Shown piece by piece: positions 18,001 to 24,000 of a stretch of 64,000 bases of DNA. Within the stretch, counting starts at the first letter, position 1. The number at the start of each line of letters is the position of its first letter. Source of the DNA: a bacterium (lineage in GTDB: Bacteria; SAR324; NAC60-12); contig CBDBHR010000025.1 in the NCBI GenBank assembly GCA_965205865.1, positions 160,001 through 224,000 of the forward strand. Reading direction: 5' to 3'. The position numbers were made by a program.

Positions 18001-21000
18001 ATACCGTGCCACGAGCTGGACCGTCGCCACCGGTACGATCAGGATGGCCAGGGTCAGGATCAGTCCGACGGCCTGGAAACAGAGGAGCGTAGCCACGCTG
18101 ATCATCAACTCGAGCGCCAGACGGGTCGGCATCACCGGCCAACCCCGCCGGGCGGCATAAGCAGGGTCGAAAAGGAAAATCTTGATAGGCGCGTAAAAAA
18201 ACAGCAACAACAGGAAGGTCACTACCACCACTCCCCCTGCAAAGAGATTGTCCGTCCAGGAAACAGCCAACAGATCCCCCAGAATGAAATGGTCCAATGA
18301 AATGTCGAGTTCACTGCGATAGAGACGCAGCAGGATCAACCCCAGGGCAAAATTGAATCCGATGACGATCACGCTGCCAGTGGTGTGGTCGGTGCGCCGG
18401 TGCCAGGCGAAGGCCAGGATGAGCAGACGCGTTAAGATGATCGCCAGCAGACCTCCCAGTAAAAGGCTCCACGAGGAGCGACCAATCCAAACGTAAGCCA
18501 GGATCAGACCTGGAAGGAGACCATGGGCCAGGCTTTCCACCTGCAGGGCTGAACGTTGGGTGACGACGATGGAACCGGCCATACCCCCCAGCAACCCCAG
18601 CAGGACGATCATCACCAAAGCGGTCTTCATGAAATCGTAAGTCCAGGGAGATGTGAGCCAGTCCATCATGCCGGTAACGCCTTTTCGGAGGAGAGTGGGT
18701 TCTTGTTCTGCGAAATGAGTAGATGCTCGAAACGATCGTATCTGAAAACCAGGACTTCGTCGAAAATATCGGGCACGCTTTCCCAATCATGATGGACCAC
18801 CAAAAGGGTTTTTCCGTCCCGCACCAGGTCTTTCAAGATGTCGACGGTCAGGGCTTCTCCCTTTTCATCGACTCCCGCCAGGGGCTCATCCAGAAAAAGC
18901 AGTTGGCTGTCTTGCAGGAGCAATCGGGTCAGGTAGACCCGGCGTTGTTCGCCTCCTGACAGGCTGGCAATTTGCGAGTGTTGCAGGTGCGTTATACCCA
19001 TCCGGTTCATGAATGTCCGGCCCCGTTCCGGGTCAACCCGTCTCTGCCAGGGCCATTTGAATTGGAAAAACAGGGAACTGCCCGCGGCAATGAATTCCTG
19101 TACAGTGATGGGAAAATCGGAAGGAATATCCAGGTGCTGCGGAAGATATCCCACCTGGTGTTTGACCTGGTCAAATGATTTGCCGAAATAGGAAATCTCT
19201 CCGTAGTAGGGAATTTCTCCCACCAGCGCCCTGAACAACGAACTCTTGCCGCATCCGTTTGGACCCAACACCCCGATCAGTCGACCATGAGGGATTTCAC
19301 AATGGCAATGCAGGGTCGCCCGTTGAGGGCCAATGTCGAAATGGACACCGGAAACGCATAAGGAACAATCCGTGGTTTTTATTTCAGTCATATAATTTGT
19401 ACGCCTTCCTGAATGCCTGAGAGAGAACTCGAATGTTTTCCTTCATAAAACCTACATACGTCCCCGCCGGCGTGCCGGGCGAGGTCAGGTTTCCGGGGTT
19501 CAACGATTCCTGGATGGTAATTTCGGCTTCTCGCGCAATTTGAGCCAGCAATGGGCTGACATGCTCTTCCGGGAAAATAACCCGTACCTCTTCTTTTTTA
19601 ATCTCGGCAATGATCTTCTCTAACATCCGGGGACCCAGTTGATCCTCACCGCCAATCCCATGAGGAGCCAGAGTCCGGAAATGATAGGCCCTGCCAAAAT
19701 ATTCGAAAGCCAGGTGGCTGGTGACCAAAAGTCGCCGGGACTGTGGAATGAACGCCAATTGTTCATGAATCCAGGCGTCCAAACGTTGGAGGATCTCTGT
19801 ATATTCCAAGGCGTTTCCCCGGTAATATGCCACATGTTGCGGATCCCGTCTTGCCAGTTCTTGCGCAATGAGATCAGTCACCTGAATCATCATCGACACA
19901 TCGTGCCAGACATGGAGGTCCATGTCACCATTCGTGGCATCAGTTTGTTGATCTTCCTCCTCTTCATGCTCTTCGATTGTTTCCATCTCATTGGAGTGAT
20001 CTTCCTCCCCTTCATGGTCTTCCTTTATCCCGGGTAACAATTGCTGTAAATGCTTGCCCAATTGCAATTGCTTGTCATCAGCAATCCGCTTCAAATAGGG
20101 ATGCAACCAGGTTTCCAGAGGCAATCCAAACCAGACGAGCAGGTCCGCTTCGCTCATACGAATCTGGTCCCTCATCGTGAGCTCGATGTCATGCAGATCA
20201 ATGCCGCGTGAAGCCAGAGCATGCGCCTCGACCTGTATTTTTCCCACGTTCCTGACGACGTCTTCCAGAATGCTCCAGGACGCAATTACCTTCAAAGGAG
20301 CGGCTTCCGCCCAACCGACGAACGCCAAAAAGATGACTAAAATTGTTGCGCTCCGTTTCCATTTTCTTAAAATCATGGCTGTCTTCCATAGGCCAAAAAT
20401 CAGATAAACATGTTTTTTTAGATTCAATTATTTTGCAAGTAATTTATCGTGATTACAAATTTTTACAAGAAAATTATAATAATCAAATCCAAGGCAAAGT
20501 GAGACCTTCAGAAAACGGGAAAAATGGAGCAAAATTCATCTCGAGATACTTACGCTCGTTACCAGAGATTACCCTGATAAAAGGTCTTTACATTCAGATT
20601 TTAAGATATTAAAAGGTTCACTCATAGAGTATCTTCAATTGAACCGCGATAGTGACCCATGCGCAGCGAGTAGGGAAGGGTCCCATTCTGCAAAAGCGAT
20701 TACTATTTTACCCACCGATACCCGTCAAGGGCCAGCAAATGGCTTGTCGAAGTGAGCTATTGATGGTTCAACAGGATTCGCAAAATATTGGTACGAAAAT
20801 ACGCCACCTCGCTGCGATCGGCAGTTTTTTAAAAATCAAGGAAATCAGAAAACCACCATGCAGCAAACTGTTCGGGAAGCTATTGATTTTGCTTTGACCC
20901 ATGGATTGATCAAGTTCAATCAGCGATTTGAACTGAACCACGCGCCTTTTTCGATGGTCCCCTACGAAATCTCGACAGAAGTGCTGGAACAAATGATCGT

Positions 21001-24000
21001 TCTGACACCCTTGTTCAATGAGTTAATGTTCAAAGTTTCCAGGGATGACGGATTTTTACGTGAATCGTTAACCCCAACTGCCCGAACCGATTCCTTTGTG
21101 CGGGAGTTGCTTGCCATCCAAACCCAAAATCGGGGGACGCAATCCACTCGACTGCTGATCAACCGCAATGACTTTTTGCTCAGTACGACGTCGGATGATT
21201 GCGGATTGCCAATACCGAAGCAGGTTGAATTCAATGCGATTGCTGCAAGCTATCCCTACTTAAGTAGTCAATTGAGTCGATTGCACTATTTTTTAAATGG
21301 AATCCAAGGTGGCAAAAATAACTTGGTGGACAACGATCCGATCAGCGGTATTGTGGCGATCATAGCCGAGGCTATCAGACACTATGACGCGCCTCGATGT
21401 TGCCTGTTGACGATTGCGCAGCCTCGAGAACAAAACATCTTCGACCAGCGAGGGAGCGAGCACATACTGTGGGAGGAATTTTTCATTCTCACCATGCGCA
21501 TGTCCCTGGAGGAAGTGGCCCAAGAAGGAATTCTGAGGGAAGGACATCTGGTGGTACGAGGTAGAATTGCCGCAGTTACTTATTTTCGGGCAGGATATAC
21601 TCCCAATGATTATCCTACTGCAGAAGCCTGGAATGGCAGACGATTGATTGAAGCATCATCTACCATTGCGGTCCCCAGCGTGGCTATGCAATTGGCAGGA
21701 TTAAAAAAAATCCAACAAATGCTTTCCGCACCAAAAATTTTGCGAAATTTTGTCGATGAGGACCGTGCCCGACAAATTGAACCGACATTTGTCGGACAGT
21801 ATTTACCGGATGAAATGATTAAACACGAAGGGCAATATCAAACTGCAAGTCAAGCTGCTTGTCGTTCTCCAGAAAAATTCGTACTCAAACCTCAGCGGGA
21901 AGGAGGGGGAAATAATTTTTACGGCCGGGAAATGGTTGAAAAACTCCGGTCTCTGGACCTGGAAGCTGCTCAGGCATACATTTTAATGGAACGGATATAT
22001 CCACTGCCGCATCAAACGCTTATATTGACTGAAGGTCGGGTCCAAGAAACAGATGGTGTCAGCGAAATTGGACGATTTGGCGTCTGTCTGGCCGAAGACG
22101 AAGAAATAATCGAAAACCGGGATGTAGGTTATCTGGTTCGCACCAAGGCTGCCCATCAAAATGAAGGTGGGGTTTCAGCAGGATATGCTTGTTTGGACAC
22201 GCTGCGTCTCAAGTGAAATTTATCCATTCTTACTGGCAGAAAAAAATTTCTGAAGATTTATGTCGAACTCAGGTTAAAATATGTCAAAAAGCGACGTCAA
22301 TTTTTTCAAATTTTTCGATACCCAGTTCTGTTTTGCGACATTGAAGTCGTCCTCGAATTCATCCAACATCAAATCAGTCGATTCTATCACCATTGTTTTA
22401 TAAGCCGACTTTTCCATATCATCCGCGTCCAATTCCTTATGAACCCTTCCTCTCCACAACAAGCTCCCTGTGAATGCGTCCACCAGATAGAATTTGATTA
22501 GGAACTGCGCGCCCGCACTACATTCGGAGCAAGGAATCTCGTCCATCTGAATAATAAACAACTGCTCCACTTCTAATGTTTCGCCGAGATGAGAAGAAAT
22601 ATTTTTGTCAGAAATTCCCGATAAAGCAAATGTTGATTCGAGTTGGACCATCCGGAGTTGAAGCTGTGGGTATTGCCGAAGAAAAGACTGAGTCTGAGCA
22701 GCGAAATAAAACCTGGAAAATTCCGAAAAATCATTCAACCGTTGCTCCACCCTTTCCGTCACTGCTTCAAGTAACGGCGCTTCTACGGAGTTTGAGGATT
22801 TTGCCGCAATCAAAGCAACATTTTTGCGCAGATGTGGACTTGTATCCGGGACTACATAGCCCCTATAATCCGAACACGAGGAAAGTATGAGAAAAAATCC
22901 TATCAAGATATTCCAACCGATTTGTCCCGCTCTCACGTTGTTTTCCCCCTCAAAGTATAAAACTCATTGTTTCGTTTTATGATTCCAGCGTTGCTCATTG
23001 CTGCAGTTTTGTATAACGTGATTCTATGGACGATCAGACAATACCCTTGTCGATACATTGACCGTCTTATTCACAGATTTGCTGCTTGGACGGTTGCATG
23101 AGCAATTTGTATCTAATGTATATTGTATTTTAGCGCCATGAAAGAAAAACAGGCTATCATGTTTTTCTGCGAACTTCTATCATGATGCGGCACCCTTTAA
23201 ACCCAAGAGTCGCAGGTTCCAATGTCAACCCGGACTTGATCCGGGATCCAGTCTGCGTAAACTCTTGAAAATACTTTGGATTCCCGCTTTCGCGGAAATG
23301 AATCAAAGATTTCCTGACAGGCTTGATAATTTCAATGACTTACGGGAACTTACAACTGTCGAGCTTTATTGTACAAGAGGATATTATTCTGAACTGAAAA
23401 ATTAACAAATGCGATAAATGTTCATTTTTATCAAAAACAAGAAATGAAGGTGGACTCCTTTTTTGACAAAAAGGGGGGTGAACTTTATCATTGTGTTTTT
23501 CTTATCCGGAATGAACGTTACGAAAGTAAAAAAATTTTCAGTCATGACAAGTTTGCATGAATGACATCAACCATGTTTGAATTAAAAACCGTTGGTTTGT
23601 TTATTGATCACAGGCGCCACTTTGAAGTCAGTCAATTCTTGCAGGATTGGTTCGCGTCTCATCGGATTGCCACAACCCTGCTCAGTTGGGACATTCCACC
23701 CAGTAAGGAACTGGATCTCATCATCACTATAGGAGGCGATGGTACGGTGCTGTACGTTTTGGGGCAATTTCCCGTCTGCCCTGTGCTGGCATTCAATTTT
23801 GGCACCATAGGATTCCTGACGGCCGGCAATGAGGAGGAAATGCGAGCCATCTTGGAAAAGCTCCTCAATGAGCAGTGTTTTATCAGCGAGCGCTCCACTC
23901 TTGAATGTCTGTATGGCGGAGAGCACTTTTACGCGATCAACGAAATGGTGATTAAAGGAATCAATCGATTGCTTTCGGTGGATTGCTTTGTCAATAAAGC

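What a model noticed while it worked through the whole genome (the two positions that open the first line are those of the whole stretch)
20858..22216. Eukaryote-type glutathione synthetase in place of bacterial GshB
g01225 (452 aa) is a full-length eukaryote-type glutathione synthetase (PF03917+PF03199) and this genome has no bacterial GshB. The eukaryote-type enzyme is the norm in order SAR324, nearly excludes GshB across the phylum, and belongs to a deep bacterial clade apart from the eukaryotic sequences, so it is not a recent pick-up from a host.
Evidence so far: Family in only 434 of 189,784 bacterial genomes but 51 of 63 in the order. Aligns over residues 2-448 to human GS, E 3e-78, with the substrate and ATP motifs kept. 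PF03917 found in 41 of 55 phylum genomes at least 88% complete: 23/24 and 10/10 in the two families of the order. PF02955 has no match here or in G038; 12 of the 14 genomes without the eukaryote type have a GshB match at E<=2e-56, none of the 41 with it do. FastTree of 155 proteins: a 40-row clade (SH 99) holds g01225 and all named bacteria (SAR324, Desulfurispirillum, a cyanobacterium, Armatimonadota), the three named eukaryotes fall outside. Plant-like GshA, ChaC and 5-oxoprolinase are also present.
(Added by a program. Inside this text positions count along the whole contig: contig position 160,001 is position 1 of the stretch shown here. "Call 12" and the like, gene names such as g00115 and contig names such as C1 are that model's own, and its searches are not shown. 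The text may have been shortened before it was handed on; [...] marks where a part breaks off. The agent that wrote the report below was given it as the finding of a first reader that could run no searches.)

Follow-up and report, generated by a model that had tools for sequence, protein, structure and literature searches.

The report
Eukaryote-type glutathione synthetase in SAR324 bacteria
Most members of a group of uncultured bacteria (order SAR324) appear to finish making the antioxidant glutathione with the kind of enzyme known from animals, plants and fungi rather than the usual bacterial one, which reopens the question of where our own version of this enzyme came from.

Summary
Confirmed. 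Window 20858-22216 (+) encodes a full-length eukaryote-type glutathione synthetase: TIGR01986 380 bits (cut-off 329.8), model TM 0.91 to human GS, gamma-glutamyl pocket 6/6 canonical. It sits among ordinary bacterial genes. This 92%-complete genome shows no GshB but has a plant-like GshA, GSTs and ChaC. The family is in 57 of 64 order genomes. Canonical GshB (12 of 88 phylum genomes) never co-occurs with it, and in one genus it lies directly behind gshA. Best reading: the housekeeping second step of glutathione synthesis, which displaced GshB at the base of the order and later spread to family f7, Chrysiogenetota and Xenobia. Two corrections. (1) 9 of 64 carriers also hold GshB-like paralogs, some over NCBI's glutathione synthase cut-off. 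(2) Bacterial members are not one clade: there is a separate Gammaproteobacteria branch and a Nannocystis copy nested in stramenopiles. The main bacterial clade is firm (100/99), but three rooting attempts failed, so eukaryote-to-bacteria and bacteria-to-eukaryote both stay open. Activity is untested; cultured Desulfurispirillum indicum makes it testable.

The parts
20858..22216 (+). Eukaryote-type glutathione synthetase gene (452 aa, P0001), single uninterrupted ORF
   Evidence: AF2 pLDDT 95.8, Foldseek TM 0.91 to human 2hgs; GC 0.469, GC3 0.449 vs genome 0.48
21164..21250 (+). Cys-pocket Arg103; E124 and N126 of the ADP pocket (Mg ligands, role recalled); A129 and S131 of the Cys pocket
   Evidence: mapped through the 5oes alignment onto the potato GS pocket list (PMC5919673 S4 Table)
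21419..21448 (+). gamma-glutamyl pocket residues Q188, E191, N193, Q197
21587..21598 (+). gamma-glutamyl pocket residues R244 and Y247 (YFRAGY motif)
21887..21922 (+). Glycine-rich ATP loop KPQREGGGNNFY (K344-Y355)
   Evidence: K344, P345, R347, E348, G349, G350 and N353 invariant in the 61-row alignment
22139..22183 (+). R428 and K430, and the acceptor-site loop EGGVSAG (S440-A441 where human and potato have Ala-Ala, soybean hGS Leu-Pro)
19384..20427 (-). Divergent neighbour: ZnuA-type metal-binding protein, first gene of a znuABC-like run; not functionally linked
   Evidence: PF01297; neighbours change between genera
22274..22936 (-). Convergent neighbour, 220-aa protein without family; kept next to the GS gene in G038 and G043
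   Evidence: no Pfam or NCBIfam match; family F44 in L081 and L076, mapped to genomes

Best explanation
P0001 is the housekeeping glutathione synthetase of this bacterium. It ligates glycine to gamma-glutamylcysteine with ATP and Mg through an acyl-phosphate, as human and plant GS do (mechanism inferred from homology). gamma-Glu-Cys would come from the plant/alphaproteobacterial-like GshA on contig C4 (inferred). The eukaryote-type enzyme replaced the unrelated bacterial GshB at or before the common ancestor of families f1 and f2 (non-orthologous displacement), was inherited vertically since, and later moved sideways into family f7, Chrysiogenetota and Xenobia. Shown: family membership, fold, pocket residues, distribution, gshA linkage in one genus, tree topology. 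Inferred: activity, product, order of events. The ultimate origin (eukaryote or bacterium) is not resolved.
For: Over the TIGR01986 equivalog cut-off. TM 0.91 to human GS. Against potato GS: Glu pocket 6/6, Cys pocket 2/3, ADP pocket 12/15 identical. In 58 SAR324-branch loci N, Q, R and Y of the Glu pocket are invariant, Q188 and E191 kept in 57 of 58. No GshB here and no E. coli-type GshA. GshA-like, two GST_N, two PF00462, ChaC and oxoprolinase-type matches present. Canonical GshB in 0 of 64 carriers and 12 of 24 non-carriers. gshA directly upstream on the same strand in G050, G051, G055, G056, G057 and in G054, where the GS start lies at the contig end. gloB next to the gene in 7 Xenobia loci. 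Gene tree keeps f2 apart from f1 (100/97); f7 copies nest inside f1 (98/90), while 9 of the 12 f7 genomes without the gene have canonical GshB over the cut-off.
Against: No activity data. The acceptor loop is S-A (C/S in 51 of 58 SAR324 loci), where 73 of 90 named eukaryotes have A-A; this loop governs Gly versus beta-Ala/Ser choice (PMC3473041). The GshA candidate is below its equivalog cut-off. No glutathione reductase passes TIGR01421 or TIGR01424 here (best 242 of 556 and 267 of 606 bits). 9 of 64 carriers also have GshB-like paralogs. In this genome gshA and GS are unlinked. Kin are not independent, so the exclusion pattern rests on few events.
Confidence: 0.8

Rival explanations
1. Same enzyme type but a different product: a glutathione analogue gamma-Glu-Cys-X (Ala, Ser or beta-Ala) rather than, or besides, GSH.
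For: Acceptor-loop first position is C 26, S 25, V 4, A 2 of 58 SAR324 loci against mostly A in named eukaryotes. In fission yeast, changing these two loop residues shifted acceptance toward Ser, and toward beta-Ala with two further changes (PMC3473041). No GR ortholog over cut-off.
Against: Ser and Cys are small, unlike the Leu-Pro of hGS. All mutants in PMC3473041 still used Gly. GSH-type partners are present (GST, PF00462, ChaC).
Confidence: 0.12
2. The gene is accessory, and GSH (if made) comes from a GshB-like paralog or another ATP-grasp enzyme.
For: GshB-like paralogs of G045, G076 and G080 pass NF003573; in G076 one lies between an ArsR-type gene and a GCS2-type ligase. G086 (97% complete) has neither the eukaryote-type GS nor canonical GshB, only the clade-A paralog.
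Against: 55 of 64 carriers, including this genome, show no such full-length paralog (one partial match in G041 not examined). Both paralog clades also occur beside canonical GshB. The gene is near-universal in the order.
Confidence: 0.06
3. Eukaryotic contamination or a recent pick-up from a host.
For: Family named 'eukaryotic'. One such case seems real elsewhere: Nannocystis L084 is sister to Saprolegnia (99/94) and was the only hit in 401 Myxococcota genomes.
Against: Intron-less ORF flanked by znuA, NAD kinase, lptB, rpoN, pspA. GC like the genome. 76% identical ortholog in a one-contig congener, G038. Nearest tree neighbours are family members.
Confidence: 0.01
4. Origin question, reading A (separate from function): bacteria got the gene from stem or early crown eukaryotes, at least twice (SAR324 order, Gammaproteobacteria), plus a later Nannocystis event.
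For: Rare and patchy in bacteria: 2 of 55 in the Thiomargarita order, 2 of 400 Gammaproteobacteria, 1 of 401 Myxococcota. Other SAR324 families use GshB, so the order acquired it. In the 65-row tree P0085 (best metagenome relative has a 39-nt GT..AG intron) and P0037 (85% identical to an MMETSP transcript) fall outside the named-eukaryote group, next to bacterial branches. Holding the two bacterial groups together is marginally rejected (AU p=0.042).
Against: With long and unnamed rows dropped, all 21 named eukaryote rows form one side (94/98) and all bacterial rows the other. No eukaryotic supergroup appears as donor of the main clade. MAD puts the root between the main bacterial clade and the rest (0.1575 vs 0.1725).
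Confidence: 0.5
5. Origin question, reading B: the enzyme arose in bacteria from a circularly permuted ATP-grasp ligase, and eukaryotes received it before their last common ancestor; the SAR324 and Gammaproteobacteria branches are surviving bacterial relatives.
For: Eukaryote rows one-sided, with plants, stramenopiles and holozoa each grouped. Two deep bacterial branches lie outside them. Structural relatives are bacterial ligases (YgiC, YjfC, GspS, Mfla_0391, TM about 0.5-0.6; CP-ATP-grasp clusters at 0.96-0.98). The 17 best non-reversible roots lie outside the eukaryote group and its stem. Marine SAR324 is dated at 1686 My (PMC10703444).
Against: All 91 root positions lie within 7.65 lnL and roots inside eukaryotes are only 1.5 lower. 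The one-sided result depends on dropping 21 rows and adding 3. The Gammaproteobacteria branch is patchy. No archaeal title among the 79 GTDB loci.
Confidence: 0.4

Closest known systems
Eukaryotic glutathione synthetase (TIGR01986; PF03917+PF03199; human GSS 2hgs, potato St-GSS1 5oes, yeast Gsh2 1m0t)
   Same: Full-length match over the cut-off; TM 0.87-0.91 to human and potato GS; canonical Glu pocket, ATP loop and arginines
   Different: Encoded by bacteria; about 36% identity to human; acceptor loop S-A instead of A-A; forms its own clade
Homoglutathione synthetase of legumes (3kaj/3kal)
   Same: Same fold (TM 0.93 to 3kal)
   Different: Lacks the Leu-Pro acceptor loop; the Xenobia branch, not this protein, has L/I-G there
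Bacterial GshB (TIGR01380, PF02955)
   Same: Same reaction presumed; both ATP-grasp enzymes (recalled; review PMC10295655 says eukaryotes and most bacteria recruited an ATP-grasp protein)
   Different: No sequence match of P0001 to GshB models; about 312 vs 452 aa; canonical GshB and this gene exclude each other across 88 genomes
Bifunctional GshF of Streptococcus, Listeria, Pasteurella
   Same: A known bacterial alternative to GshB (PMC10295655 passages)
   Different: P0001 is not fused to a GshA domain, and the genome has no E. coli-type GshA match
Bacterial circularly permuted ATP-grasp ligases (GspS, YgiC/YjfC, CP_ATPgrasp_2)
   Same: Next-nearest structures, TM about 0.5-0.6
   Different: 10-15% identity; profile-profile probability only 2.2%

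Membership tests
Eukaryotic glutathione synthetase (TIGR01986) | Score above the curated equivalog cut-off over full length | tested here: met
   380 vs 329.8 bits, residues 2-449
Eukaryotic glutathione synthetase (TIGR01986) | PF03199 substrate domain inserted within PF03917 | tested here: met
   PF03917 2-450, PF03199 182-280
Eukaryotic glutathione synthetase (TIGR01986) | Fold of human/plant/yeast GS | tested here: met
   AF2 pLDDT 95.8; Foldseek 2hgs TM 0.91, E 1.3e-46
Eukaryotic glutathione synthetase (TIGR01986) | Six canonical gamma-glutamyl pocket residues (Q, E, N, Q, R, Y) | tested here: met
   Q188, E191, N193, Q197, R244, Y247
Eukaryotic glutathione synthetase (TIGR01986) | Cys pocket (R, S, S) and ADP pocket (15 residues) | tested here: met
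   R103, A129, S131: Ala at the middle site is the commonest state in named eukaryotes (59 of 90). ADP pocket 12 of 15 identical, changes M>L, I>V, Q>E
Eukaryotic glutathione synthetase (TIGR01986) | Small-residue acceptor loop selecting glycine (Ala-Ala/Ala-Thr) | tested here: inconclusive
   S440-A441; Ser first seen in 1 of 90 named eukaryotes
Eukaryotic glutathione synthetase (TIGR01986) | Homodimer | not tested
   No complex prediction run; a pass would follow from likeness to solved dimers
Eukaryotic glutathione synthetase (TIGR01986) | Forms GSH from gamma-EC, Gly and ATP | not testable with these tools
   Needs an assay
Eukaryotic glutathione synthetase (TIGR01986) | Encoded by a eukaryote (range implied by the family name) | tested here: not met
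   Bacterial neighbours and composition; this lowers only the 'eukaryotic' label, not the sequence-family membership
Bacterial GshB (TIGR01380 / PF02955) | Match to GshB models, about 312 aa | tested here: not met
   No such match for P0001
Homoglutathione synthetase | Leu-Pro in the acceptor loop | tested here: not met
   S-A in P0001 vs L-P in 3kaj
GshF | Fusion of an E. coli-type GshA domain with a ligase domain | tested here: not met
   P0001 is GS only; no TIGR01434 match in the genome

The most novel reading that the evidence does not exclude
The 'eukaryotic' glutathione synthetase is a bacterial invention. It survives as the housekeeping enzyme of order SAR324 (and, by transfer, Chrysiogenetota and Xenobia) and in a second gammaproteobacterial branch, and was passed to the eukaryote stem before the last eukaryotic common ancestor. 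These would be the missing prokaryotic orthologs of human GSS, from a non-alphaproteobacterial, non-archaeal source. The Xenobia branch, with an altered Glu pocket and an L/I-G acceptor loop, may have evolved a different peptide product.
Probability: 0.4. Interest if true: 0.8.

Novelty: new variant of a known kind. Interest (0 to 1): 0.62.

Why it matters
Reviews treat gshB as the prokaryotic and gsh2/GSS as the eukaryotic gene (PMC10295655 passages). A whole bacterial order, including abundant marine lineages, appears to use the eukaryotic type as its standard enzyme. This is a clean case of non-orthologous displacement, and GshB-only pathway screens would wrongly score these bacteria as unable to make glutathione. 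It supplies full-length prokaryotic orthologs of eukaryotic GS, which turns the origin of that enzyme into a phylogenetic question. Cultured carriers (Desulfurispirillum indicum, Desulfurispira natronophila, Chrysiogenes arsenatis) allow direct biochemistry. The chemistry itself is probably ordinary, and databases already label many entries 'glutathione synthase'.

Tried and rejected
Rooting with CP_ATPgrasp_2 proteins as outgroup: hhalign probability 2.2%, 17% identity, so not used. Non-reversible rooting (NQ.pfam, fixed 47-row tree): the AU step did not finish in time; the 91 root positions span only 7.65 lnL. MAD rooting: best root only about 9% better than the next. Viral contigs: 11 pattern matches, none a relative. 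Promoter and terminator scan: 3 promoter-like sites against 4.1 expected, 3 terminator-like against 1.6, no signal. Expression: contigs of two metatranscriptome runs of one study cover parts of the gene at depth about 1-4, and a third run of another study covers about 200 nt; these are contigs, no silent control stretch was laid, so transcription is not shown. Small-share run labels were not used to name a habitat. Eukaryote-type GCL (PF03074) as partner: 0 of 5 genomes, but the control rang nowhere, so uninformative. Identity of unnamed rows P0075 and P0145: no named close relative. The idea that the six weaker order hits are orthologous GshB was rejected: they fall in a separate clade (PRK12458-like; QEGLA-gene neighbour in G062) that also occurs beside canonical GshB. 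Literature: 'eukaryotic-type glutathione synthetase' 0 papers; 'PF03917'+'bacteria' 5 papers, 4 listed, on nematodes and beetles; searches showed no listing on this topic (titles and abstract starts only). PMC12872458: no 'glutathione' in the main text, no GSS or K21456 in 3 searched supplements, one supplement unreadable and its full data tables not seen. Copley and Dhillon 2002 is not held; it is known only through the review's citation and recall. Subscription papers and bioRxiv supplements could hold an earlier report.
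Full report
Observation. Window 20858-22216 (+) is one ATG-started ORF of 452 aa. It matches PF03917 over residues 2-450 with PF03199 inside, and TIGR01986 at 380 bits against a cut-off of 329.8, its only NCBIfam match. The best solved relatives are human, potato, soybean and yeast enzymes (E 2.9e-78 to 4e-59). An AlphaFold model (pLDDT 95.8) superposes on human GS with TM 0.91; the next structural tier is bacterial GspS/YgiC-type ligases at TM about 0.5-0.6. 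The gene is native to a bacterial chromosome: its neighbours are a znuA-type gene, NAD kinase, lptB, rpoN and pspA, and its GC (0.469; GC3 0.449) is close to the genome's 0.48.

Active site. I mapped P0001 through the HMMER alignment to 5oes onto the pocket residues listed for potato GS in PMC5919673 (S4 Table read whole; main text as passages). All six gamma-glutamyl residues are kept, 12 of 15 ADP-pocket residues are identical, and the Cys pocket is R103/A129/S131. Ala at the middle site is the commonest state in 90 named eukaryote sequences (59 of 90). The 58 SAR324-branch loci keep the Glu pocket almost without exception. One difference: the acceptor loop is S-A here and starts with C or S in 51 of 58 loci, against A-A in 73 of 90 eukaryotes. 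In fission yeast these two positions tune Gly versus Ser/beta-Ala use (PMC3473041, parts 1 and 2 of 4 read), so the product should be assayed.

Pathway in this genome (91.9% complete). No TIGR01380 or PF02955 match, no tblastn hit with four SAR324 GshB-type queries, no E. coli-type GshA. Two GCS2-family genes: a plant-like GshA below its cut-off (266.8 of 463 bits) and a YbdK-type ligase. Two GST_N, two PF00462, one ChaC and one oxoprolinase-type match are present. No glutathione reductase passes either model, which counts against a complete classical cycle or reflects the missing 8%.

Distribution in the phylum. TIGR01986 matches 64 of 88 genomes: f1 37 of 44 plus this genome, f2 19 of 19, f7 7 of 19, f3-f6 0 of 5. 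Of 26 order genomes at least 90% complete and at most 5% contaminated (my tally from the rounded table), 25 match, and the miss, G054, has the start of the gene at a contig end. TIGR01380 passes its cut-off in 12 of 88 genomes, all among the 24 non-carriers. However, 9 of 64 carriers have full-length GshB-like genes below that cut-off. A tree of 32 GshB-type rows puts them in two paralog clades that also occur beside canonical GshB. Three of four scanned carrier paralogs pass NF003573 'glutathione synthase', and the G076 copy lies between an ArsR-type gene and a GCS2-type ligase. So the exclusion is firm for the housekeeping ortholog only; a partial match in G041 was not examined. A GshA-like gene is in 78 of 88 genomes, and in genus g10 it lies directly upstream of the GS gene on the same strand in five genomes plus G054. 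This is the best contextual evidence for function.

Beyond SAR324. A motif scan of 185,579 GTDB genomes gave 79 loci: 58 on the SAR324 branch, 13 Xenobia-branch (one a fragment), 6 Gammaproteobacteria, 1 Nannocystis and 1 weak partial match not examined. This is a floor, since Chrysiogenetota proteins with the motif were not returned. Cluster look-ups named Desulfurispirillum indicum, Desulfurispira natronophila, Chrysiogenes arsenatis and Eremiobacterota. The gene is in 24 of 44 genomes of the Xenobia-containing class and 24 of 251 sampled from that phylum, but in only 2 of 55 of the Thiomargarita order, 2 of 400 Gammaproteobacteria and 1 of 401 Myxococcota (these hits include the seed genomes). 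Only 1 of 34 carriers tested has GshB over the cut-off. I could not reproduce the figure of 434 genomes; my full-length count is about 100.

Phylogeny. In a 65-row tree (LG+C20 PMSF) SAR324, Xenobia and Chrysiogenetota form one side at 100/99. Within it f2 is separate (100/97), Xenobia joins the f1 side (99/91), and f7 copies nest among f1 sequences (98/90; loci mapped). With f3, f5, f6 and most of f7 using GshB, the simplest reading is gain at the base of the order and later lateral spread (inference; it assumes the root lies outside this clade). The Gammaproteobacteria form a second branch (88/88), and Nannocystis is sister to Saprolegnia (99/94). Holding both bacterial groups together is marginally rejected (AU p=0.042). 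The rows between them are unnamed and at least partly eukaryotic: P0037 is 85% identical to an MMETSP transcript, and the best metagenome relative of P0085 (49%) carries a 39-nt GT..AG intron. After dropping 21 long, unnamed or redundant rows and adding 3 eukaryotes, all 21 named eukaryote rows form one side at 94/98. The result therefore depends on sampling, and my eukaryotes were chosen by similarity and include no row identified as Discoba, Metamonada or Alveolata. Outgroup, MAD and non-reversible rooting were all uninformative. Marine SAR324 has been dated at 1686 My (PMC10703444, passages), within the range usually given for early eukaryotes (recalled), so timing does not decide the direction either.

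Mechanism. Most likely (0.8) P0001 is the second enzyme of glutathione synthesis, working as human GS does, fed by the plant-like GshA, and it displaced GshB long ago. Rivals are a GSH analogue (0.12), an accessory role (0.06) and contamination or recent host transfer (0.01). On origin I put eukaryote-to-bacteria at 0.5 and bacteria-to-eukaryote at 0.4.

Prior knowledge. The review PMC10295655 (passages) assigns gshA/gshB to prokaryotes and gsh1/gsh2 to eukaryotes and names GshF as the bacterial alternative. Ten paper searches (listings and abstract starts) showed no report of the eukaryotic type in bacteria. PMC12872458 (passages and three supplements searched) and PMC7052976 (passages) add nothing on it. 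The 2002 paper on the history of these genes was not available. Database entries are already named 'glutathione synthase', without note of type.

Verdict. Real and largely as described, with two corrections (GshB-like paralogs in some carriers; more than one bacterial branch). A known enzyme family in an unexpected, order-wide bacterial setting. Interest 0.62; 0.8 if the bacterial-origin reading holds.

Noticed in passing
L066-L071 (Thiomargarita, Thiotrichales, Methylococcaceae and other Gammaproteobacteria MAGs); P0095, P0318, P0319: A second bacterial branch of eukaryote-type GS, closer to eukaryotes than the SAR324 clade; 5 of 6 genomes pair it with E. coli-type GshA and 5 of 6 lack GshB over cut-off.
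   Followed up: partly
L156 (G090:C21:66913-67287) versus L145 (G089:C142:21961-22887): Two close relatives both carry the eukaryote-type GS (loci 97% identical); G089 has an intact gshB, G090's gshB lacks about 576 bp internally and is a 137-aa frame. Possibly displacement in progress, or an assembly error.
   Followed up: partly
Xenobia loci L111, L112, L119, L122, L125, L129, L131, L132, L136, L138, L139, L143: Altered pockets (Q>P in 12 of 12, N>S/G in 10 of 12; acceptor loop L/I-G), gloB adjacent in 7 loci, and 13 of 21 genomes without PF04107 or PF04262: candidate for a different substrate or product.
   Followed up: partly
L084:1040-2485 (Nannocystis MAG): Eukaryote-type GS among bacterial genes, sister to an oomycete sequence (99/94): probably a separate, later eukaryote-to-bacterium transfer.
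   Followed up: partly
L047 (G076:C120) and L046 (G080:C5): GshB-like clade A follows an ArsR/SmtB-type regulator; in G076 a GCS2/EgtA-like ligase follows. Possibly a metal- or arsenic-inducible thiol module.
   Followed up: partly
L060, L062, L065: GshB-like clade B (PRK12458-like) lies next to a QEGLA-motif gene; function of the pair unknown.
   Followed up: no
G000 whole genome: No glutathione reductase over the TIGR01421 or TIGR01424 cut-off despite GS, GshA-like, GST and ChaC genes.
   Followed up: partly
window 32948-34636 (+): Gamma-glutamyltransferase-family gene 10.7 kb downstream (PF01019; TIGR00066 327 bits, cut-off 357.85); no sign of linkage.
   Followed up: no
window 10175-11617 (-): Protein with Sel1 repeats fused to pentapeptide repeats.
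   Followed up: no
window 11652-17121 (-): Higher-GC block (0.55-0.58) with ORFs that read like a histidine kinase, periplasmic binding protein, anti-sigma factor, phosphatase and STAS protein (read by eye, not scanned): possibly acquired.
   Followed up: no
window about 23188-23331: Short intergenic stretch with very high contig depth in three runs (50-237), suggesting a repeated or mobile element end.
   Followed up: no
G035:C5:17179-18473: The eukaryote-type GS is split into two frames in this genome: frameshift or sequencing error; the stretch was fetched but not analysed.
   Followed up: no
P0075, P0145, P0420, P0448: Unnamed deep lineage of GS from public-run contigs up to 35 kb, placed next to the SAR324 clade; its domain of origin would matter for the root.
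   Followed up: partly
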